Below are positions 3,608 to 13,454 of a stretch of 40,402 nucleotides of DNA, piece after piece. The notes below the pieces were generated by a model. That model was not told where the DNA came from and made no database searches. It saw only the letters and a list, made by a program, of their open reading frames with translations. The position numbers and the translations under genes are program-made. Within the stretch, counting starts at the first letter, position 1. Every line of letters starts with the position of its first letter. Origin of the DNA: a virus (Duplodnaviria > Heunggongvirae > Uroviricota > Caudoviricetes); IMG/VR virus record IMGVR_UViG_2529292883_000006; one strand, given 5' to 3'.

Positions 3608-4006
3608 ATGGCTAAAACCCGGCACAAATTCGCAACAGCAGCAGGATATTTTTGTATGAAGCAACGACGTAATTCTTCACAGCAACGCTTCCGCAACGGG
3701 GCGGAACTCCACGCTAACCGTTTCGCTACCAGCGCATCACGCAGCAGCTCTCGCTACAGCCTGAGCGAAACACACGCCACACCTGATGGCCATCCCGTAA
3801 AACAAATTGGCGAACACACCTGGCTGATTGAAAAAGCTGGAATCGTGGTCCACAAATGCCCACGCAATCCGTTTACCGGAAGCCGCATTTTTGCACTAAG
3901 CAGCGGCGACAATCAGTTCGGGCAGGATTTCACATTATACGAAGCACTTCGCACGGTTGATCGTCTGCTTCGCGGACAAAGTTTTATTAAACAGGTTGAT
4001 TTATAA
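3608..4006 (+). CDS. Hypothetical early protein (start may be the internal ATG at 3656)
   Basis: ORF in the early operon. No SD is visible before 3608; a weak one precedes 3656. Confidence 0.45.
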   Translation: MAKTRHKFATAAGYFCMKQRRNSSQQRFRNGAELHANRFATSASRSSSRYSLSETHATPDGHPVKQIGEHTWLIEKAGIVVHKCPRNPFTGSRIFALSSGDNQFGQDFTLYEALRTVDRLLRGQSFIKQVDL

Positions 4007-4016
4007 CAGGTGATTT

Positions 4017-4268
4017 ATGACCAAAGAGTATGCACAAGGTGTATTTATCCGTTTTATTGATTCTCGCGGTGAACTGTTATTGCGTGCATCAGCTATCAAT
4101 GGTGTGGCCAAGACAAAAGACGCAACCACTCATATTTATTTGGACAGCACCGCACAACTGATCGTGGAGCTTCCGTACCAGACTGTACGTGAAGTCATTA
4201 GCGAAGCTGAAAAGGCACGTCAGATTAATAGCGATGAACCATACATCGAAATTATCTGCATGGATTAA
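4017..4268 (+). CDS. Hypothetical early protein (83 aa)
   Basis: ORF with short spacing to its neighbours. Confidence 0.5.
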   Translation: MTKEYAQGVFIRFIDSRGELLLRASAINGVAKTKDATTHIYLDSTAQLIVELPYQTVREVISEAEKARQINSDEPYIEIICMD

Positions 4269-4303
4269 GAAGCTGAAACCCAGAAGACAGATTAAAGGGT
4301 GTT

Positions 4304-5964: not shown

Positions 5965-6168
5965 ATGAACAACAAGACATGGTTTCGTGCATATGCATGG
6001 GCGCTGGTATGCGTCCTCGTCTCTCTCATTCTGTATGTAGGGGTACTCCCCCGAATGATTTCATCAGACAGCTCCTTCCTGGTATTGCTGGGCATTTTCA
6101 TTGCCATGCTGTACCCGGCAGGCGTTGTTCGCCTTTTCAGTAAGTACATCAAGGAAATTAAACAATGA
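5965..6168 (+). CDS. Small two-TM membrane protein (67 aa), coupled to the downstream SPFH gene
   Basis: Translation has two hydrophobic helices (WALVCVLVSLILYVGVL; FLVLLGIFIAMLY). AAGGG RBS. Its stop overlaps the ATG of the next gene. Confidence 0.5.
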   Translation: MNNKTWFRAYAWALVCVLVSLILYVGVLPRMISSDSSFLVLLGIFIAMLYPAGVVRLFSKYIKEIKQ

Positions 6169-6995
6169 AGAAATTCAGACTCTTTCAGATTCTCCCGCTT
6201 TTTGCCGCCATCCTGCTGGTTGGCTGCGATCGCGTTGAGCCAGGTAATGTGGGCATCAAAGTCAACAAGCTGGGCGACGACAAAGGCGTTGGCGAAGTGG
6301 TTGGCGTTGGTCGCTACTGGACTGGCTGGAATACCGAGGTTTACATCTTCCCGACCTTCAAACAAATGAAGACCTACGATGAGCCGTTCAGCTTTCAGAT
6401 GAGTGACGGCACAACCATCGGCTATCACATCGGTGTGGCCTACAAGGTTGATCCATCCAAAGTTACTACAGTGTTTCAGACCTACCGCAAAGGCGTGGAT
6501 GACATTACCGACACTGACCTGCGCCAGAAGATCGCCGACGCACTCAACCGACTGGCCAGCAAAATGACCACCGATAAATTTATCGACGGTGGCAAGTCTG
6601 AACTGCTGGATTCAGCACTTAAAGACATTCAGGCAGAAATGACACCTATCGGCATTCAGGTAATGAGCCTCTCTTATGTCGGTAAACCGGAATACCCACC
6701 AACCGTTATCGACAGCATTAATGCCAAAGTCACGGCAAACCAGAAAACTCTGCAACGCGAGCAGGAAGTCAAGCAACGCGAAGCAGAAGCCAACATGCTG
6801 CGCGCAGAAGCTGCCGGACAAGCTGATGCCATTCGCACAAAAGCCCAGGCTGAAGCCGACGCCATTCGTTTGCGCGGTGAAGCTCTGCGTCAGAATCCCG
6901 GCGTTATGGAGCTGGAAGCGATTAACAAATGGAACGGCACGCTGCCGCAATACATGACCAGTAATACCGCTGTTCCGTTTGTTCCGGTGAAGTAA
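6165..6995 (+). CDS. SPFH/Band-7 (prohibitin/stomatin-like) domain lipoprotein
   Basis: Signal peptide with lipobox (LLVGC). The C-terminal Ala/Glu-rich coiled-coil stretch (EQEVKQREAEANMLRAEAAGQADAIRTKAQAEADAIR) is typical of SPFH proteins. Confidence 0.75.
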   Translation: MKKFRLFQILPLFAAILLVGCDRVEPGNVGIKVNKLGDDKGVGEVVGVGRYWTGWNTEVYIFPTFKQMKTYDEPFSFQMSDGTTIGYHIGVAYKVDPSKVTTVFQTYRKGVDDITDTDLRQKIADALNRLASKMTTDKFIDGGKSELLDSALKDIQAEMTPIGIQVMSLSYVGKPEYPPTVIDSINAKVTANQKTLQREQEVKQREAEANMLRAEAAGQADAIRTKAQAEADAIRLRGEALRQNPGVMELEAINKWNGTLPQYMTSNTAVPFVPVK

Positions 6996-7046: not shown

Positions 7047-7362
7047 GTATGCCGTTCTCACAAAAAAACCGCTTGCCATGCCGCAATCAGTCAGGTTACA
7101 TTTCCGCTGCACCTCATAAAACGGGTGCCGGGATTTCCACCCCGCTGACAACTACAGCGCACAACCGCGCCAGCGGTTTTTTTGTGCGTACTGTATCGCC
7201 ACGTCTTTTTCGCACACGAATTATGGTGGGGCGTATGGGGCCGACTTCGGTCGGGCCGGGTTCTGTAGTTGCCGGTTGTGGAAACCCTGTACGTCTCACC
7301 ACCCCGAGTTTTCCACCTCTGGATGGTGAGTTTTCAAAACTTGCAACTACAGAGGCCACACC

Positions 7363-7593
7363 ATGGCAAACCGCAAACATCACCGCGCTATCGCGGAGCG
7401 TCGTCACATCCAGACTGAAATCGATCGCAGACTCACCCGCGCTGCACACATCGCCTTTATCATGCAATCCAACACATTGCACAGACTCAACAGCACTATT
7501 TCAGCCGACTACTGCGCCGCTGTATTCAGCTATCTGGCGGAAGACCTCCTGTCTCTTCAGGATCTCATCCAGCAGCAAAACAAACTCCATTAA
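7363..7593 (+). CDS. Hypothetical small protein (76 aa), weakly supported
   Basis: ORF preceded by ~300 bp of structured non-coding sequence and followed by a stem-loop at 7603-7636. Weak RBS. Confidence 0.3.
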   Translation: MANRKHHRAIAERRHIQTEIDRRLTRAAHIAFIMQSNTLHRLNSTISADYCAAVFSYLAEDLLSLQDLIQQQNKLH

Positions 7594-7687
7594 TTCCTGT
7601 TCCAGGCCTCTCCTGCGCTTTGCAGCGGGAGGCCTGCGCACACCTATAACAAGGAGATTAGCTATGGCTAATGTTTTTGTTTACTCA

Positions 7688-8101
7688 TTATTTAAAGGGG
7701 GATTCGTCACCCCCTTCAAAATCATCATCGTCAAAATAATCATCGAAATCATCATCATCTTCTTCGGGCGCAGGAGGGTTTACAGGAATATCAACAAGTT
7801 TCATTTTTCCACTTGCTATATCAGCCTTTACTTTTGGCAAGGCAAAAACCGCGTCATATCCGCGAAAAACCTCCCCATCACCAAGAATATTGGTGAGCCC
7901 GAGTCTTTTCAAAAACTCACAAATAGAAACGTAATCTCCAAGCCCAGAACCGGTAATAGCTCGGTAAATAAATCCATTATGAAAAAGAGCAACTGGATAG
8001 GGAGCTGCTCCCCACGGATCTCGAGGACGCCCCTCAAGCCACAGACTTATTTTTTCATCGTAATCAGGTCGTTCGCACTCTCTTGTATATCGATGTTTCA
8101 T
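7688..8101 (-). CDS. Hypothetical protein with strongly acidic C-terminal tail (EEDDDDFDDYFDDDDFEGGDE), opposite orientation to the early operon
   Basis: 137-aa ORF on the minus strand with its own upstream region (8102-8199). Composition is unlike the overlapping frames. Confidence 0.6.
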   Translation of the reverse strand: MKHRYTRECERPDYDEKISLWLEGRPRDPWGAAPYPVALFHNGFIYRAITGSGLGDYVSICEFLKRLGLTNILGDGEVFRGYDAVFALPKVKADIASGKMKLVDIPVNPPAPEEDDDDFDDYFDDDDFEGGDESPFK

Positions 8102-8199
8102 TGGTTTTTTCTCTCTTTTTACATGGAAATAAATAATTTACGAAACACAACCACTAACCGCCAAGCCCCTAATGAAAATTTATACAAGAGGGGAGTTGT

Positions 8200-8589
8200 A
8201 TGATTGACCATCATGACTTCGTAAAATGGGTGCGCCCACAGGACACCCGTCTGGCTCCCGTTCTCCAGGGATTATTTGATCTCTACATCCGTGGTCGTGA
8301 CAACAGAGCGCGCACTACAAAACCGGAGAATGCGGACACCCTTTATTTCACAGTAGACGACTGCTACCGCGTGGACTTCACACCACACGGACTGGCGTTG
8401 CACTGCCTGACACCGCACGGCGAATCACTGCTGGCGTATTACGACTCCCCGGCCTCCGTATTTGCGGCAATGCTGGCGCATCGCACTGCTGGCGGGTGTG
8501 CCTCGCTGAGTGAATACACCGCTGAGTTTAACCGCCTTTCCGCCCTCTTCTCACAGGAGTGGCAGCGCGTGACGGGATACCAGCCATGA
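8200..8589 (+). CDS. Hypothetical protein upstream of and coupled to gene A
   Basis: RBS agaggggag before the ATG. Its stop overlaps the gene A ATG (ATGA at 8586-8589). Confidence 0.55.
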   Translation: MIDHHDFVKWVRPQDTRLAPVLQGLFDLYIRGRDNRARTTKPENADTLYFTVDDCYRVDFTPHGLALHCLTPHGESLLAYYDSPASVFAAMLAHRTAGGCASLSEYTAEFNRLSALFSQEWQRVTGYQP

Positions 8590-11426
8590 GTGAGTTTGCA
8601 TGGAGCTGGAATGAACCACGGCCAGCCATTGATCCGGCCAGATTTACGGAGCGCAGGCAGGAAACTGAAACCGACCTGCAACGCGCCATCCGTTACTACC
8701 TTGAGGCAGACAAAAAGGCCCAGGAAGAACAGGAAGCGAAAGAGGAAGCCTTTTTCGCACAATCCGCCATGGGTAAAAAACTCATGGCATCCCTTGAGGA
8801 AGCCGGACAGCGTGAAGAGCTGGCACAAAGCATCATCAGCAAGCGTCAGGCAACAGAACAAGACCCGGTGGCCCGTGCTTTTGCCACACTGAAGGTGCTT
8901 CCCGTTTATCTGCGTGAACCACTGAGCCGCCGCCTCTCTTTTTTACGTAAGAAGCAGGAATCTGACCGCCAGAAAGGCAAAAAGAGTCGACCAGCAGAGG
9001 GCTACGCACGCGGAACCCTGCGCAAAATATTCGAACGTCTGGATCGCACTGACGGGCGCTGGCTGACACCGGGTTATCGCTCCCTTGCCGGACGCGAACG
9101 CCTGGACGATTTGCTTTACCTGCCGCAGCTCAACAAACACCAGATACAGACGCTGGCCACCATGACGGCGGCGATGTTCAGCAGCACCTTCGAAAAACTC
9201 TGCGATGGCTTTGGCGCGACCGATGGCGAACTGACCATGGATGTAACGCTGAAGGCGTATCAGATGCTGGCCCGCATGGCGTTACACCTGCACGCCATGC
9301 CTCCACATTATGACGCACTGACAACAGACAAAGACCAGAGGAACGAACCGGACACGGAGCTGCTGCCGGGCGCAATCCTTCGCCTGACCTGTGCAGAATG
9401 GTGGAAACGCAAACTGTGGCTGTTACGTTGCGAGTGGAGAGAAGAACAACTCCGCGCCGCCTGTCTGGTTTCCAGAAAAACATCGCCCTATCTGAGCCAG
9501 GACGCGTTAAGCGAGTTTCGCGCACAGCGCGAGAAAACACGCGATTTCCTGAAAAGTTTCATGCTGGAAAATGAAGACGGGTTCACGATTGATCTCGAGA
9601 CGGTGTATTACGCGGGAGTAAGTAACCCGGTTCACCGTAAGGCAGAAATGATGGCCACCATGAAGGGGCTGGAACTTCTGGCCGAAGCCCGTGGCGACAA
9701 AGCGGTGTTTCTGACTGTCACCTGCCCGTCAAAATACCACGCCACAACAGAGAACGGTCATCCGAATCCCAAATGGAACGGGGCCACCATGCGCGACTCC
9801 AGCGATTACCTGGTTAACACGTTTTTTGCGGCGGTCCGCAAAAAACTGAACCGCGACGGTCTTCGCTGGTATGGCATCCGCACGGTGGAGCCTCACCATG
9901 ACGGCACCGTGCACTGGCATATGATGGTCTTTGCTCATCCGGAAGAAATCGACAGCATCGTGGCCATCACCCGCGATATTGCCATTCAGGAAGACCGCCA
10001 CGAGCTGGGCAATGATATTACTCCGCGCTTTAAGGCAGAGTACGTCGACGGTTCGAAAGGTACGCCGACCAGCTACATCGCCACCTACATCGGAAAGAAC
10101 CTGGACAGCCGCGCCGTGGATGGCATTGACCCGAAAACAGGCAAACCGCGCATCGACGACGAATCAGGAAAGACGATGGCAGAAAGCGTGGAACGCGCCA
10201 TCGGCTGGGCGCGCCTTCACCGGGTCCGCCAGTTCCAGTTCTTTGGCATCCCTTCCCGTCAGGTGTGGCGTGAACTGCGCCGCCTTGCCTGTCAGATGGC
10301 ACGTAACCCACAGGGACCGCAACGTCTGGAAAATGACGCAATGGATGCGGTTCTTGCTGCCGCTGATGCCGGATGTTTTGCCACCTACATAGAGAAACAG
10401 GGCGGCGTGCTTGTTCCACGCAAAGACTACCTGATTCGCACCGCCTACGACCTCGCAGATGAACTGAACGATTACGGCGAGCAGAGTGTACAGATTTACG
10501 GGATCTGGTCGCCGCTCATCGGGGAGTCTTCCCGCGTGTGCACGCACCCGGATAACTGGAAGCTGGTAAGACGTAAACCGGAAGCGGAAGACAGCGCCCG
10601 CGAAAATGGTTTTGACCTTCAGGGCGGCCCTGCCGCCCCTTGGACTCGTGGCAATAACTGTCCCCGTGTACAGGAAACGGACAACAACGGGACAGAACAG
10701 CCGGAAGAACGGCCAGCACCGTGGCCGCAGCTCCCTGACGGCGTTGAAGTGAACGAATGGATGCGCTCACTGAAACGGCACGAACGCCGGGCGCTGATGC
10801 GTTCGCTGCGTGACAAACAGGCAAAAAACAGCAGTGATGAAATGCAGAGCTGGACACAGAGCCACAAACAGCCGCGACCTTTGCCTGATAACCACGAGTT
10901 ACTCGCTAAAGAATGGCGGGAGTCTGCCGAATCTCTCGGCCTGCATATCGGTGAACAGCAGATGCAGCACCTGTTACGGGGCGGCAGCCTGTACGTTGAC
11001 GGCAGCATCATTGCACCGCAGGGATTTGAAATTGTACGCAAACCGGATACCCGCCCGGACAGCCGAATCACGCAGCTCTGGCAACGCCTGAGCCGTAATC
11101 ACGGCGTAAGCAGCACGGAGATCCGCCATAACCCGGTCGCCGGCTATCTGGAGCAGCTGGGGGCATCAGACCCCGAAGCCGCCGCACGCCTGGCATCCAC
11201 ACTTCAGCAGGACCAGAACACCATGAAAACCCCCGTTACCGTGCTTTCTGACATGTTGCGCGCCATCCGTGACGCAGAGCACGCACAGAGAATCAGTGAA
11301 ACCACTGAACGCGCCCACCGCAAAGCAGACCTGCTGCGGGGTAGCCTGACCAGTGGAAACAAAAAACAGACAGAAACGGGATTCACAAATCCCGTAAATG
11401 AGCAAAAAACGTGCCGCGATATATGA
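8586..11426 (+). CDS. Rolling-circle replication initiator (P2 gpA-like HUH endonuclease), 946 aa
   Basis: HUH motif (GTVHWHMMVF) and paired catalytic tyrosines (SYIATYIGK). Position corresponds to P2 gene A. The start at 8586 is chosen from translational coupling. Confidence 0.85.
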   Translation: MSEFAWSWNEPRPAIDPARFTERRQETETDLQRAIRYYLEADKKAQEEQEAKEEAFFAQSAMGKKLMASLEEAGQREELAQSIISKRQATEQDPVARAFATLKVLPVYLREPLSRRLSFLRKKQESDRQKGKKSRPAEGYARGTLRKIFERLDRTDGRWLTPGYRSLAGRERLDDLLYLPQLNKHQIQTLATMTAAMFSSTFEKLCDGFGATDGELTMDVTLKAYQMLARMALHLHAMPPHYDALTTDKDQRNEPDTELLPGAILRLTCAEWWKRKLWLLRCEWREEQLRAACLVSRKTSPYLSQDALSEFRAQREKTRDFLKSFMLENEDGFTIDLETVYYAGVSNPVHRKAEMMATMKGLELLAEARGDKAVFLTVTCPSKYHATTENGHPNPKWNGATMRDSSDYLVNTFFAAVRKKLNRDGLRWYGIRTVEPHHDGTVHWHMMVFAHPEEIDSIVAITRDIAIQEDRHELGNDITPRFKAEYVDGSKGTPTSYIATYIGKNLDSRAVDGIDPKTGKPRIDDESGKTMAESVERAIGWARLHRVRQFQFFGIPSRQVWRELRRLACQMARNPQGPQRLENDAMDAVLAAADAGCFATYIEKQGGVLVPRKDYLIRTAYDLADELNDYGEQSVQIYGIWSPLIGESSRVCTHPDNWKLVRRKPEAEDSARENGFDLQGGPAAPWTRGNNCPRVQETDNNGTEQPEERPAPWPQLPDGVEVNEWMRSLKRHERRALMRSLRDKQAKNSSDEMQSWTQSHKQPRPLPDNHELLAKEWRESAESLGLHIGEQQMQHLLRGGSLYVDGSIIAPQGFEIVRKPDTRPDSRITQLWQRLSRNHGVSSTEIRHNPVAGYLEQLGASDPEAAARLASTLQQDQNTMKTPVTVLSDMLRAIRDAEHAQRISETTERAHRKADLLRGSLTSGNKKQTETGFTNPVNEQKTCRDI

Positions 11427-11502: not shown

Positions 11503-12462
11503 ATGAAAATTTGTATCGACGACGGCTCCACCAACATCAAGCTGGCATGGACTGAGAACGGCGAACGCCGCAACGCCATCAGCCCGAACAGCTTCAAGTC
11601 GGAATGGTCTGCGCCGTTCGGTGGCACGCAGCCCGCGAACTACATGCTTGATGGCGTGCGCTATGGTTTTGATCCGGTCAGCGATCGCTTTGTCCAGACG
11701 ACCGACACGCAATACCAGTACAGCGATGTGAATGTCATCGCCGTTCATCACGCGCTGGTCAAATCAGGCATCACGCCACAGGAGGTGGATGTGGTTGTCA
11801 CCCTGCCACTGAGCGAGTATTTCGACACAAACGCACAACCGGACATGGCCAACATCAACCGCAAAAAAGCGAACGTTATGCGCCCGGTGGAGTACCAGAA
11901 CGGCGAGGCATTCACTATCCGTAACGTGCGGGTTATGCCTGAATCCATTCCGGCTGGCTTTAAAGCACTGGCTGACATGAGTCCGTTTGAATCCCTGCTG
12001 ATTGTGGATTTGGGCGGAACCACGCTGGATGTGGCAAAGGTTCAGGGGCAACTGGCAGGTATCAGCCAGGTGTTTTGCGATCCACACGTAGGCGTTTCTC
12101 TGATGGCCGATGCCGTGCTGTCGGTGATGGCCACCAACGGTATGCGCACCAGTCACCACATCGCCAATACCATTATCGAACATCGCCACGATGAAGCCTG
12201 GCTGCGCCAGCACATCCACAATGACGCGCATTACGCCAGTCTGATGGCAGTTATTCGTGAAAAGGAGGAAACACTGAAACAACGCGTGATCCGCGCGCTG
12301 GCGGGTTTTTCGGGTTACGGGCGGGTGATGGTTGTCGGTGGAGGAGCGGAGATTGTGGCACCCGCTATCCGCGAAGCCTGCGGAGTTAATGCGACTTTCA
12401 TCGCGGACGGGGTGCCACAGTTTGCTCTGGTTAATGGGCTGTACGCAATGGACAAGGAGTAA
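11503..12462 (+). CDS. parM: Actin-like segregation ATPase, ParM/StbA family
   Basis: 319 aa. Translation begins MKICIDDGSTNIKLAW and carries ISPNSFK, YSDVNVIAVHHAL, VMPESIPAG, DLGGTTLD, GGGAE and LVNGLY motifs, which align along the whole length with plasmid R1 ParM as I recall it. Confidence 0.85.
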   Translation: MKICIDDGSTNIKLAWTENGERRNAISPNSFKSEWSAPFGGTQPANYMLDGVRYGFDPVSDRFVQTTDTQYQYSDVNVIAVHHALVKSGITPQEVDVVVTLPLSEYFDTNAQPDMANINRKKANVMRPVEYQNGEAFTIRNVRVMPESIPAGFKALADMSPFESLLIVDLGGTTLDVAKVQGQLAGISQVFCDPHVGVSLMADAVLSVMATNGMRTSHHIANTIIEHRHDEAWLRQHIHNDAHYASLMAVIREKEETLKQRVIRALAGFSGYGRVMVVGGGAEIVAPAIREACGVNATFIADGVPQFALVNGLYAMDKE

Positions 12463-12466
12463 ATCA

Positions 12467-12781
12467 ATGACGACACCAACCAGACGGATAAGTTTCTATC
12501 TGAAGCCCGCCGTCGTCAAGAGCGAACGGGAGGCGTGCAGCTACCTCGACAGCCTGCCAGCCTCCGAACGCAGCCGCGCACAACGCGCGGCTTTTCTGGC
12601 CGGACTGGCTCTTATAAAACGCACCCCCGCGTTGGCGTATTCGCTGGCAGAATGGTCAGAAGACGAAATACGGATGCCACCGCTACCAGTACAGCCTGAA
12701 AAACCGGCGCAACCAGCAGCAGACAGCGCCCCCCATATGCAGCAGGTGAAAAAGAATATTCAGGCGTTTTTCCCGAAGTGA
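12467..12781 (+). CDS. parR: ParR/StbB-like centromere-binding adaptor
   Basis: 104 aa immediately downstream of parM with an AGGAG RBS. The N-terminus RISFYLKP...SERSRAQRAAFLAGLAL resembles the R1 ParR ribbon-helix-helix region. Confidence 0.7.
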   Translation: MTTPTRRISFYLKPAVVKSEREACSYLDSLPASERSRAQRAAFLAGLALIKRTPALAYSLAEWSEDEIRMPPLPVQPEKPAQPAADSAPHMQQVKKNIQAFFPK

Positions 12782-12795
12782 AAACAGGAGTAACT

Positions 12796-13083
12796 ATGTC
12801 CACCATTACCAAAGAATGGTTACAACGTAAAATCACAGAGTTTAAATCGTGGCGCGAAGACATCCCGTTCGGTCTTGATGAAGACGATCACAATATGTTA
12901 ATCGCACTGGAAATCGCACTTGCATCACTGGAAGCAGAGCCAGTGGCATGGATGCACGCAAATAATCCTATTGGAATACCGGCGATAACAAGAAGTAAAG
13001 ATGTTGCAGACAGCTGGCGCTCTAAGGGATGGAATGTATTGCCTCTTTATTCACTGACCCGCTCCATCAATTTATGCCATTAA
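12796..13083 (+). CDS. Hypothetical small protein (95 aa), lower GC than surrounding genes
   Basis: ORF with AGGAG RBS 5 nt before the ATG. Coupled to the downstream Rrf2 gene. Confidence 0.5.
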   Translation: MSTITKEWLQRKITEFKSWREDIPFGLDEDDHNMLIALEIALASLEAEPVAWMHANNPIGIPAITRSKDVADSWRSKGWNVLPLYSLTRSINLCH

Positions 13084-13094
13084 TGGAAGTAATC

Positions 13095-13454
13095 ATGATG
13101 AAAGATAATTCCGGAAGCCAGCGTGCATCAGTTGCAGTTATGGTAATGATTAAATTTGTGAAACAGTACACCGGAAAGCCAATCTCGCTCCGGCAATTAA
13201 GCAAAGAAACCGTTTCACTGTCATATCTGGAGCAAATATTCAGATATTTACGGGAAAGTAGCCTGGTAAAAGCCACACGCGGCCCGGGTGGTGGATATAT
13301 CCCAACAAAAGAAAATTACAGTGTTGGTGATATTGTCCGGGCAATGAAATGTTCCGGATTATATACACAGCACGTTATTCTGGCTGCACTGGATAATATT
13401 TCTTTAACCAGCCTGCAGGAAGACACAAATTATCAGTTGTCTGCCATTAAATAA
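13095..13454 (+). CDS. Rrf2-family (IscR/NsrR-like) winged-helix transcriptional regulator
   Basis: Segment SLSYLEQIFRYLRESSLVKATRGPGGGYIPTKENYSVGDIVRAM matches the Rrf2 HTH signature (compare IscR [33 protein letters not shown]). AT-rich codon usage. Confidence 0.8.
   Translation: MMKDNSGSQRASVAVMVMIKFVKQYTGKPISLRQLSKETVSLSYLEQIFRYLRESSLVKATRGPGGGYIPTKENYSVGDIVRAMKCSGLYTQHVILAALDNISLTSLQEDTNYQLSAIK

What the first reader, a model, noticed from the sequence alone, without database searches (positions are those of the whole stretch)
7688..8101. Oppositely oriented gene encoding a protein with a poly-Asp/Glu C-terminal tail
This 137-aa ORF is the only minus-strand gene between the early operon and gene A, with its own upstream region and a stem-loop downstream. 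Its tail EEDDDDFDDYFDDDDFEGGDESPFK is an extreme acidic patch of the kind seen in DNA-mimic or anti-restriction proteins and some toxin-neutralising domains.
Basis: inference. Interest (0 to 1): 0.5.

Follow-up and report, generated by a model that had tools for sequence, protein, structure and literature searches.

The report
Reverse-strand phage gene with acidic tail
A real, conserved but uncharacterised small protein gene sits backwards inside the early operon of a P2-like (P88-type) prophage, next to the replication gene; its acidic tail is a lineage-specific add-on, and nothing ties it to known DNA-mimic or anti-restriction proteins.

Summary
ORF 7688-8101 (-) encodes 137 aa ending in EEDDDDFDDYFDDDDFEGGDESPFK. 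It is the only reverse gene in the early operon of a P88-like P2-family prophage. It lies in a 557-bp AT-rich insert (7643-8199) that close E. coli relatives lack.

It is a genuine gene. Against homologues, pN is 0.15-0.33 and pS is 0.58-0.83, with changes concentrated at third codon positions. The family is small (phrog_19905; 61 clusters at 50% identity). Its core is about 90 aa, charge-neutral and predicted to fold as beta-alpha-beta-beta-alpha-beta. The core has no Pfam, NCBIfam, PADLOC, PDB or fold relative.

In every P2-like locus examined the gene lies just upstream of, and divergent from, replication gene A. The acidic, aromatic tail is disordered and varies in length. It occurs in only one clade, so it is not the family's core function.

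The DNA-mimic or anti-restriction reading is neither supported nor excluded. My best guess, at low confidence, is a lysogeny-phase accessory binding protein, or a gpA-linked regulator.

One unexpected point: the operon strand carries an in-register antisense ORF (7664-8203). It has its own Shine-Dalgarno sequence and an ATGA junction to the next gene. Related phages keep this frame open more often than chance predicts, so it may act as a translational bridge.

The parts
7688..8101 (-). ORF137 coding sequence (137 aa plus stop). This is the gene of the finding and a member of phrog_19905.
   Evidence: ORF list and sequence. PHROG hit at E=1e-17. Purifying selection: pN 0.15-0.33 against pS 0.58-0.83, with third-position changes dominant. 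Exact protein found on 15 contigs read, and the 90%-identity cluster holds E. coli and Shigella boydii entries.
7802..8101 (-). Conserved globular core, residues 1-100. Predicted order of elements is beta-alpha-beta-beta-alpha-beta plus a helix. Net charge is about 0.
   Evidence: AlphaFold2 10-residue block means 72-95 over residues 1-100; elements E2-4, H14-22, E34-40, E43-50, H53-65, E83-86, H88-96. Conserved motifs P..D..I..W, YR, GL.EY and GYD..F across 38 family members. pI 7.8.
7766..7801 (-). Linker KLVDIPVNPPAP, residues 101-112. The (L/M)xDIP(R/K/V)N.P motif is shared by the enterobacterial clade.
   Evidence: Alignments and C-termini.
7691..7765 (-). Disordered acidic/aromatic tail EEDDDDFDDYFDDDDFEGGDESPFK, residues 113-137. 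It is encoded largely by GAT/GAC runs.
   Evidence: pLDDT below 50 for residues 114-119 and 126-136. Charge -14. Clade-specific. Length varies from 136 to 142 aa within the 90% cluster.
8102..8199 (-). Upstream region of ORF137. It holds a purine-rich Shine-Dalgarno-like stretch (AAAAAGAGAGAAAAAACCA before the ATG) and one weak promoter candidate, TTGGCG (8164-8159) - 18 nt - TAAATT (8140-8135).
   Evidence: Sequence. No site of 9/12 or better. The 8/12 candidate. The proximal part resembles the 5' leader of homologues (CATG-AAAAAG-GGGAAA), by my reading of the sequences printed.
7643..8199 (.). 557-bp low-GC insert that carries ORF137. In the otherwise 90-97% identical prophage of E. coli ES4 it is replaced by 23 bp.
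   Evidence: BLAST junctions. No match to the insert in 5,426 complete E. coli genomes or in 50,697 phage records. GC profile.
7664..8203 (+). Operon-strand ORF (179 aa), antisense to ORF137 and in codon register with it. AAGGAG (7651-7656) lies 7 nt before its ATG. Its TGA overlaps the ATG of the next gene (ATGA at 8200-8203). I read it as a candidate translational bridge.
   Evidence: The frame is not itself under protein-level selection (dN/dS above 1). It is kept open in 10 of the 16 loci tabulated; Poisson-binomial P is about 6e-4 with clades merged (5 of 10 lineages) and 2e-5 with three lineages split. Gene callers never report it.
7657..7672 (-). Small hairpin AUUAGC-CAUA-GCUAAU, 16 nt downstream of the ORF137 stop. 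It overlaps the ATG of the operon-strand ORF.
   Evidence: RNA fold.
7603..7636 (.). GC-rich hairpin between the derepression gene and the insert. It is a backbone feature, has no U-tract on either strand, and is present in relatives that lack ORF137.
8200..8589 (+). ORF129 (phrog_3237, function unknown), the operon gene between ORF137 and gene A. It overlaps the gene A start by ATGA.
8586..11426 (+). Gene A, the rolling-circle replication endonuclease (946 aa from the ATG at 8586). It is the constant neighbour of this gene family.
   Evidence: PF05840 at E=5.8e-131. Gene calls. Synteny.

Best explanation
ORF137 is a genuine accessory gene of P2-family phages. It belongs to a small uncharacterised family (phrog_19905) whose usual slot is just upstream of, and divergent from, replication gene A. 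So it is nested backwards in the early lytic operon.

Shown:
- The protein is a soluble, neutral domain of about 100 aa with a beta-alpha-beta-beta-alpha-beta order of elements.
- In the E. coli, Enterobacter and Raoultella clade it also carries a proline-rich linker and a disordered acidic/aromatic tail.
- The P88-like lineage of this window acquired the gene on a 557-bp AT-rich insert.

Inferred:
- Because the gene faces against the repressed early operon, it is probably transcribed from its own weak promoter in the lysogen. Head-on early transcription would then shut it down after induction.
- The protein probably works by binding another protein through its folded core.
- In this clade the flexible poly-Asp/aromatic tail may add an electrostatic, nucleic-acid-like or SSB-tail-like decoy for a DNA-binding or DNA-processing partner. 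The partner could belong to the host, to a competing phage or to a defence system.
- The operon strand compensates for the nested gene with an open, Shine-Dalgarno-led antisense ORF. This would keep ribosomes on the early mRNA up to ORF129 and gene A.
For: - Real coding gene: pN 0.15-0.33 against pS 0.58-0.83, with third-position substitutions dominant. The antisense frame shows dN/dS above 1.
- Fold: mean pLDDT 79, block means 72-95 over residues 1-100, tail below 50.
- Family: 7 close clusters; 61 clusters at 50% identity; phrog_19905 at E=1e-17.
- Synteny: gene A lies directly upstream and divergent, with a gap of 23-67 bp, in 22 loci and in called or annotated loci from Raoultella, Morganella, Enterobacter, Serratia, Klebsiella phage 3LV2017 and two Vibrio phages. 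Gene A itself is only 30-38% identical to the window's copy.
- Insert and composition. GC3 is 0.28 against 0.64 for gene A.
- No signal peptide or membrane segment; neutral core; tail charge -14.
- The tail keeps an aromatic/acidic motif and its reading frame despite indels. A second, independent acidic/aromatic extension occurs in a Vibrio phage homologue.
- The int-GpA interval is a minor accessory and defence hotspot of P2-like phages, holding 8% of their defence systems (PMC13586616).
- Bridge ORF.
Against: - No promoter of 9/12 or better lies upstream, here or in the homologue scanned with the tool (L031). My own scan of 16 loci found one 9/12 site (L032) and otherwise 8/12 or nothing. 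There is no canonical terminator. Timing of expression is therefore pure inference.
- No binding partner or activity can be deduced. There is no homology to any characterised protein or fold.
- The tail is missing in many family members. Any decoy mechanism applies at most to this clade.
- The strict adjacency to gene A may indicate a replication-linked role instead.
- Adjacency may also simply reflect vertical inheritance of gene order.
Confidence: 0.35

Rival explanations
1. Replication-linked regulator. The gene stays next to gene A because its product, or its transcription, controls the replication endonuclease gpA. Where the gap to gene A is only 23-67 bp, any promoter for the reverse gene must lie inside gene A. 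Its 5' leader would then be antisense to the gpA translation start. This would suppress leaky gpA in the lysogen, or the protein would bind gpA directly.
For: Divergent adjacency to PF05840 genes was found in every P2-like locus examined, across Enterobacterales and Vibrio, although gene A has diverged to 30-38% identity. A distant member also lies about 1 kb from a GPA gene in a small element. The independent acquisition in the P88 lineage landed in the same relative position and orientation.
Against: - In this window ORF129 and 98 bp separate the gene from gene A. The only candidate promoter would not overlap the ORF129 start.
- Close relatives lack the gene entirely and still carry intact gene A. 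By my recollection, P2 and 186 also lack it.
- Some distant homologues are not near any gene A.
- Conserved gene order in P2-like phages can be explained by descent.
Confidence: 0.22
2. One reading: a DNA-mimic or anti-restriction (counter-defence) protein whose poly-Asp/Glu tail blocks the DNA-binding site of restriction enzymes or other defence nucleases.
For: The tail has net charge -14 over 25 residues. The aromatic/acidic motif is retained in the clade and stays in frame through indels. The gene sits on a mobile, AT-rich insert.
Against: - No match to Pfam (which, by my recollection, includes Ocr, ArdA and ArdB/KlcA models) or to any solved structure.
- The folded part is neutral, and the acidity is confined to a disordered tail.
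- The tail is absent in many homologues.
- A gene oriented against the early operon, with no evident strong promoter, is poorly placed for immediate-early expression on entering a new host.
- A survey of P2-like phages found recognisable anti-defence genes in only 28 elements (PMC13586616).
Confidence: 0.12
3. Prophage-encoded exclusion or defence factor, comparable to P2 Tin. In the lysogen the protein poisons a replication or recombination protein of a superinfecting phage. One route would be for the tail to imitate the acidic C-terminus of single-strand-binding proteins.
For: The orientation is typical of genes expressed in the lysogen. The int-GpA interval is a minor defence hotspot in P2-like phages. 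The D/F-rich tail resembles SSB-type tails in composition (SSB-Ct described in PMC7913777). Some homologous domains are fused to HNH nucleases (P0056 by Pfam; P0063 by my reading of its sequence).
Against: No PADLOC hit. The tail ends in -SPFK, not in a terminal Phe. The tail is not conserved across the family. No partner gene is present.
Confidence: 0.15
4. The real gene is the plus-strand ORF 7664-8203. It runs in the operon direction, has a strong Shine-Dalgarno sequence and has an ATGA junction. On this view ORF137 is only its antisense shadow.
For: The plus-strand ORF has textbook operon signals. It is open in 10 of the 16 homologous loci tabulated.
Against: Substitutions fall at third positions of the ORF137 frame. 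The plus-strand frame has dN/dS of 1.0-2.2. That frame is closed in Morganella, L010, Serratia, Vibrio and Klebsiella homologues, where ORF137-type proteins remain conserved. The ORF137 frame gives a confident AlphaFold2 fold and a 61-cluster family. The plus-strand product is absent from 15 billion predicted proteins.
Confidence: 0.03

Closest known systems
phrog_19905 (PHROGs family of unknown function) and the hypothetical proteins P0001-P0007 from E. coli, Raoultella, Enterobacter and Morganella
   Same: Direct sequence membership. The HMM hit is E=1e-17 over residues 6-88. Identity to the named hypothetical proteins is 54-99%.
   Different: The PHROG profile (94 positions) covers only the core. 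This protein adds a proline-rich linker and a 25-residue acidic tail. No member has a known function.
Phage morons and lysogenic-conversion genes of P2 (old, tin, Z/fun)
   Same: AT-rich relative to the backbone. Absent from close relatives. Carried as a discrete insert. Oriented so that it could be expressed independently of the lytic operon.
   Different: It is not in the two main P2 hotspots (gpA-Q, and the tail-gene hotspot; PMC13586616). It is nested inside the early operon. The family keeps a fixed slot next to gene A across distant P2-like phages rather than turning over. No clear promoter or terminator was found. No similarity to Old, Tin or any PADLOC model.
DNA-mimic anti-restriction proteins (T7 Ocr; ArdA; ArdB/KlcA)
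   Same: Strongly acidic overall (pI 4.4). Small, phage-borne protein.
   Different: [quoted passage not shown] That its acidic residues are arrayed on a folded surface is my recollection. Here the fold is neutral and the charge lies in a disordered tail. No sequence or fold similarity.
Acidic C-terminal tails of single-strand-binding proteins (E. coli SSB-Ct, last 9 residues; T7 gp2.5)
   Same: A disordered, Asp-rich tail with interspersed Phe, attached through a Pro-rich linker to a folded domain. A DIP tripeptide lies in the linker (SSB-Ct role in PMC7913777).
   Different: The protein ends in -ESPFK, not in a terminal Phe carboxylate. The core is not an OB fold. The SSB-Ct sequence MDFDDDIPF is quoted from memory.
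Same-register antisense ORFs ('shadow ORFs') in bacterial genes
   Same: The plus-strand ORF is the codon-aligned reverse complement of a real gene. It stays open only because the real gene lacks TTA, CTA and TCA codons.
   Different: Ordinary shadow ORFs are statistical by-products. This one has its own Shine-Dalgarno sequence and ATG. Its stop overlaps the next cistron's start. Its start abuts the previous cistron's stop in relatives. It is kept open in more saturated lineages than expected.

Membership tests
phrog_19905 / ORF137 family | Significant match to the family HMM and alignment of the conserved motifs (P..D..I..W, YR, GL.EY, GYD..F) | tested here: met
   E=1.1e-17 over residues 6-88. 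Alignments A1 and A3.
DNA-mimic anti-restriction proteins (Ocr, ArdA, ArdB/KlcA) | Sequence or fold membership in one of these families | tested here: not met
DNA-mimic anti-restriction proteins (Ocr, ArdA, ArdB/KlcA) | Acidic residues displayed on a folded surface that imitates the DNA backbone | tested here: not met
   The core (residues 1-100) has charge +0.7 and pI 7.8. The charge of -14 lies in residues 113-137, which have pLDDT below 50.
DNA-mimic anti-restriction proteins (Ocr, ArdA, ArdB/KlcA) | Relief of restriction in vivo, or binding to Type I enzymes | not testable with these tools
   Needs plating-efficiency assays and binding assays.
SSB-type C-terminal interaction tail | Acidic peptide ending in a C-terminal hydrophobic residue (…DDDIPF-COOH), on an OB-fold ssDNA-binding protein | tested here: not met
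   The tail ends in ESPFK. The core is beta-alpha-beta-beta-alpha-beta, not an OB fold.
Phage moron | Discrete insert that is absent from close relatives and has deviant base composition | tested here: met
   557 bp against 23 bp in E. coli ES4. GC 0.40-0.45 against 0.53-0.61. GC3 0.28 against 0.64.
Phage moron | Own promoter and terminator flanking the gene | tested here: inconclusive
   Only an 8/12 promoter candidate. Hairpins lack a U-tract.
Phage moron | Expressed from the repressed prophage | not testable with these tools
   Needs a transcriptome of a lysogen.
Known anti-phage defence systems (PADLOC-DB v2) | Match to a defence-protein HMM | tested here: not met
   No family at E<=0.1.
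P2 defence hotspots (gpA-Q; tail-gene hotspot) | Location in one of the two main hotspots | tested here: not met
   The gene lies between int and gpA, a minor hotspot holding 8% of P2 defence systems (PMC13586616; window map).
Type II toxin-antitoxin pair | Two adjacent co-oriented small genes, one matching a toxin or antitoxin family | tested here: not met

The most novel reading that the evidence does not exclude
The ORF137 family and its antisense partner form a conserved two-strand module at the entrance to the replication gene of P2-family phages. The backward gene, through its protein or its transcription, would gate gpA expression and mark the lysogenic state. The operon strand would have evolved a sequence-unconstrained but obligatorily open 'bridge' ORF, with a Shine-Dalgarno sequence and stop/start overlaps. 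Its only job would be to keep ribosomes on the early mRNA, which would prevent Rho-dependent polarity and couple translation into gene A. That would be selection on a reading frame for being translated, not for its product.
Probability: 0.2. Interest if true: 0.65.

Novelty: new variant of a known kind. Interest (0 to 1): 0.45.

Why it matters
P2-like prophages are among the commonest mobile elements of enterobacteria, and they carry many accessory and defence genes. This gene defines an uncharacterised protein family with no recognisable fold relative. The family holds a fixed, backward slot next to the replication initiator in phages from E. coli to Vibrio. That placement suggests a role linked to the choice between lysogeny and replication, or to competition between phages.

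The clade-specific poly-Asp/aromatic tail can be removed experimentally, which gives a direct way to look for a binding partner.

The antisense frame on the operon strand is kept open in related phages. If it is translated, it would be a clear and easily tested case of selection for translatability itself. Synonymous TTA, CTA or TCA substitutions in ORF137 would close that frame without changing ORF137. Such a result would bear on how operons tolerate nested reverse genes and avoid Rho polarity.

Tried and rejected
1. The plus-strand ORF as the real gene. I rejected this on codon-position and dN/dS analysis, and because the frame is closed in several lineages.
2. Family assignment by HMM libraries. 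Pfam, NCBIfam and PADLOC gave nothing. PHROGs gave only an unknown-function family.
3. Solved-structure relatives by profile. There were none; best E=0.55.
5. Hits of the family profile to giant proteins rich in Ig, LRR or MBG repeats (P0014, P0015, P0023, P0024 and others). I judged these to be additive low-level matches to repeats, not homology.
6. tRNA or tmRNA near the gene. None was found.
7. A canonical promoter or terminator for the gene. None was found here or in the homologue L031 with the scanning tool. My own scan of 16 loci found one 9/12 site (L032) and otherwise 8/12 candidates or none, with no conserved position.
8. Alternative cargo at the same junction in E. coli. The relatives inspected have either the empty junction or a different left flank, and none carries another insert.
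9. More phage-borne homologues through distant members. P0011 gave none and P0022 gave one Vibrio phage. Scans of viral contigs with P0013 and P0017 gave none. P0056 matched only through its HNH part.
10. Literature searches on acidic-tail DNA mimics and on antisense bridging ORFs found nothing specific to this family.
Full report
**1. Setting**

The window is a P2-family prophage. From the left it holds:
- a host glutaminase fragment (1-669, -);
- an integrase (938-1975, -);
- an HTH repressor (2030-2329, -);
- a long plus-strand early operon, running from 2418 to replication gene A (PF05840, E=5.8e-131);
- ParM and ParR-like genes, an Rrf2 regulator and the portal.

At the DNA level it is closest to Escherichia phage P88 and Xuanwuvirus, at about 93% identity over parts of the early region.

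Just left of the finding lie:
- an SPFH/Band-7 gene (6165-6995);
- an isrK-like RNA (7109-7183) and a C4 antisense RNA (7219-7306);
- a 76-aa 'derepression' protein gene (7363-7593).

Just right of it lie ORF129 (8200-8589, phrog_3237) and gene A.

**2.

ORF 7688..8101 on the minus strand encodes 137 aa and ends in EEDDDDFDDYFDDDDFEGGDESPFK. It is the only reverse gene within the early operon. Independent gene calls on other contigs that carry the identical protein agree.

The last 25 residues carry 15 acidic and 5 aromatic residues, with net charge -14. Residues 1-100 are neutral, with pI 7.8. No membrane segment is present.

Two hairpins follow the stop codon, at 7657-7672 and 7603-7636. Neither has a U-tract. 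The GC-rich one is backbone sequence that is also present in relatives without the gene.

The 98-bp upstream region holds no sigma-70 match of 9/12 or better. It holds only one 8/12 candidate, TTGGCG-18-TAAATT, at 8164-8135.

**3. The gene arrived as an insert**

In 1,405 of 5,426 complete E. coli genomes one or both flanks are found, but never the middle. In E. coli ES4 the flanks are 90-97% identical. The 557 bp at 7643-8199 are replaced there by 23 bp.

The insert has no DNA match in any complete E. coli genome or in 50,697 phage records. Its GC content is 0.40-0.45, against 0.53-0.61 in the flanks. GC3 of the ORF is 0.28, against 0.64 for gene A.

The exact protein occurs on a handful of contigs, always in the same P88-like context. 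Its 90%-identity cluster holds E. coli and Shigella boydii entries.

**4. Which strand codes?**

The plus strand carries an ORF (ATG 7664 to TGA 8203, 179 aa) that is exactly antisense to ORF137 and in codon register with it.
- It has AAGGAG 7 nt upstream of the ATG.
- Its stop overlaps the ATG of ORF129 (ATGA).

I therefore tested both frames over 102 ungapped codons in 12 homologous loci.
- In the ORF137 frame, differences concentrate at third positions (for example 17, 16 and 60 at positions 1, 2 and 3).
- For the window against each homologue, pN is 0.15-0.33 and pS is 0.58-0.83.
- The plus frame gives dN/dS of 1.0-2.2.

The ORF137 frame also yields a confident AlphaFold2 model and a 61-cluster family. 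ORF137 is the selected protein-coding frame.

**5. The protein and its family**

Close homologues (54-99% identity) occur in E. coli, Raoultella, Enterobacter and Morganella. A profile search of 1.84 billion representatives found 61 clusters. Most are proteins of 85-110 aa. They share the motifs P..D..I..W, YR, GL.EY and GYD..F.

The only library hit is phrog_19905, of unknown function, at E=1e-17. Pfam, NCBIfam and PADLOC give nothing, whether for the protein or for 38 members scanned individually. A family profile has no relative among PDB sequences; the best E-value is 0.55.

The AlphaFold2 model has mean pLDDT 79 and pTM 0.70.
- Block means over residues 1-100 are 72-95.
- The elements are beta(2-4), alpha(14-22), beta(34-40), beta(43-50), alpha(53-65), beta(83-86) and alpha(88-96).
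- That order is ferredoxin-like, with one extra helix.
- The tail is disordered.

High-scoring giant Ig, LRR or MBG repeat proteins are additive repeat artefacts. Two real fusions exist: P0056 and P0063 carry the domain at the N-terminus of HNH nucleases. For P0056 the HNH domain is a Pfam hit. For P0063 it is my reading of the sequence.

**6. The tail is a clade-specific add-on**

One clade has a PPPP(P)KP linker followed by EYDD[DE][FY][FYW]W.DD-type tails. It comprises the window, P0002-P0005 and loci L003, L008, L009, L022 and L031.

Sister lineages stop right after the shared DIP(R/K)N.P motif, or earlier. These are L010, L017, L019, L020, L024 and Morganella. Most distant members end within about 10 residues of the core.

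Within the 90% cluster the tail varies from 136 to 142 aa through Asp or DDYFDD indels, always in frame. A Vibrio phage homologue has an independent acidic/aromatic extension, EEEFYELYPENEPGYE.

The tail is therefore not the family's core function. It does appear to be maintained where it is present.

**7. Conserved position**

In every P2-like phage or prophage locus examined, the gene lies immediately upstream of gene A and divergent from it.
- This holds for the 22 loci scanned.
- In loci with called or annotated genes the gaps are 41 bp (Raoultella), 23 bp (Morganella), 40 bp (Enterobacter), 29-47 bp (Serratia), 67 bp (Klebsiella phage 3LV2017, where the gene is unannotated), and 41 and 67 bp (two Vibrio phages).
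- Those gene A proteins are only 30-38% identical to the window's copy. The small protein is 55-80% identical.
- Immunity regions differ between loci: some are C/Cox type and some are CI/Apl type.

Three distant members lie elsewhere:
- one beside an integrase and a filamentous-phage gene;
- one in an RHS region;
- one about 1 kb from a GPA gene in a small element.

The window is the exception in having ORF129 between the gene and gene A. The proximal leader of ORF137 resembles that of homologues. The sequence further upstream looks like a decayed gene A start from a donor phage; this is my reading of the sequences. The module therefore probably moved between P2-like phages by illegitimate recombination at analogous positions.

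A recent survey places 8% of P2 defence systems in the int-GpA interval. That makes it a minor hotspot, distinct from the main gpA-Q and tail-gene hotspots (PMC13586616).

**8. The antisense 'bridge' ORF**

The in-register antisense frame can contain stops only where the sense gene uses TTA, CTA or TCA. ORF137 uses none of these among its 15 Leu and Ser codons. Yet 28% of its other codons end in A.

The frame is open over the whole gene in 10 of the 16 loci tabulated. It is closed in Morganella (L004, L015), L010, Serratia, Vibrio L041 and Klebsiella 3LV2017, which use these codons freely (1 to 11 of 14-19 Leu/Ser codons).

Where the frame is open, its ends look like operon junctions.
- Its stop overlaps the gene A start, or lies 4-13 nt inside gene A: ATGA in L003, ATGCCTAA in L017, L020 and L024, and ATGAGCACAACTAA in L008, L009, L022 and L031.
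- In L031 its ATG overlaps the previous gene's stop (TGATG).

I estimated chance as follows.
- Per-locus expectations from each phage's own gene A codon usage are 0.0005-0.35.
- Synonymous sites between clades are close to randomised, with codon identity of 0.2-0.5.
- The Poisson-binomial probability is about 6e-4 with clades merged (5 or more of 10 lineages open) and 2e-5 with three saturated lineages split (7 or more of 12).
- In the window alone the event is unremarkable: 15% of 137-codon windows and 8% of 179-codon windows in its real genes are open.

Gene callers never report the product.

My interpretation is an inference. The operon strand is kept translatable across the nested gene. 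This would protect the early mRNA from Rho-dependent polarity and feed ribosomes into ORF129 and gene A.

**9. What it most likely does**

Shown: this is a real, selected, soluble, two-part protein, with a fixed backward slot next to gene A.

Inferred: it is expressed against the silent early operon in the lysogen and silenced by head-on transcription after induction. It acts by binding another protein. In this clade the tail may serve as an electrostatic decoy. I put this at about 0.35.

Rivals:
- a regulator linked to gene A, through the protein or through cis-antisense transcription (0.22);
- a Tin-like exclusion factor (0.15);
- a true DNA-mimic anti-restriction protein (0.12);
- the plus-strand ORF as the sole gene (0.03, effectively refuted).

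These readings overlap in part.

**10. Comparison with known systems, and novelty**

The protein is a member of phrog_19905 and of nothing characterised. It behaves like a moron in being an insert with deviant composition. It differs from a moron in having a conserved slot and in lacking clear transcription signals.

It fails every testable membership criterion for Ocr/ArdA-type DNA mimics, for SSB-type tails, for PADLOC defence proteins and for toxin-antitoxin pairs. Working like a decoy remains possible.

I rate it a new variant of a known kind: a phage accessory gene of an uncharacterised family, with an unusual nested arrangement. Interest is moderate at 0.45. The main value lies in the conserved gene A-adjacent slot and in the testable bridge-ORF idea.

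Noticed in passing
window 7664-8203 (+); also L003, L008, L009, L017, L019, L020, L022, L024, L031: An operon-strand ORF lies antisense to ORF137 and in codon register with it. It has its own Shine-Dalgarno sequence and ATG, and its stop overlaps the next gene's start. The frame is kept open in 10 of the 16 homologous loci tabulated (P about 6e-4 to 2e-5), although it shows no protein-level constraint. It may be a translational bridge that prevents polarity.
   Followed up: partly
window 7073-7593 (+): An isrK-like sRNA (7109-7183, 63.6 bits) and a C4 antisense RNA (7219-7306, 79.3 bits) sit directly ahead of a 76-aa 'derepression' (antirepressor-like) gene. A promoter-like site lies at 7073-7102 and a terminator-like hairpin at 7163-7178. 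This is a P1/P4-style RNA-controlled antirepressor module inside a P2-like early operon. The left flank alone is widespread in E. coli, often next to 'ash family' genes.
   Followed up: partly
window 11503-12781 (+) and 13029-13454 (+): ParM (StbA_N/ParM_N) and a ParR-like plasmid-stability protein lie just after gene A, followed by an Rrf2-family regulator. So a plasmid-type segregation cassette sits in the gpA-portal hotspot of this integrated prophage.
   Followed up: no
window 6165-6995 (+): An SPFH/Band-7 protein gene lies within the early operon (E=7.6e-31). One P88 record annotates the matching region as a lipoprotein, and the N-terminus looks like a lipoprotein signal by eye. The gene is present or absent among otherwise similar prophages (L027 lacks it).
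   Followed up: no
window 7691-7765 (-); proteins P0069-P0079: Tail length varies (136-142 aa) among near-identical E. coli and Shigella copies. The changes are gain or loss of Asp codons or of a DDYFDD unit, consistent with slippage in the GAT/GAC runs. All variants stay in frame.
   Followed up: partly
proteins P0056 (339 aa) and P0063 (183 aa): The ORF137-type domain occurs as the N-terminal domain of HNH nucleases in other organisms. P0056 has a Pfam HNH hit; for P0063 the HNH-like part is my reading of the sequence. This suggests the domain can act as a sensor or targeting module.
   Followed up: partly
L002 (Klebsiella phage 3LV2017, KY271397.1), locus 4001-4276: A family member is unannotated in this deposited reference phage genome and in 11 related Klebsiella phage records. 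It lies in a gap of about 800 bp between the replication gene and a Dam methylase gene.
   Followed up: partly
window 7049-8203 (+) and 7114-7482 (-): Long mechanical ORFs (384 aa and 122 aa) run across the isrK and C4 RNA genes. They are almost certainly non-coding artefacts upstream of position 7664.
   Followed up: no
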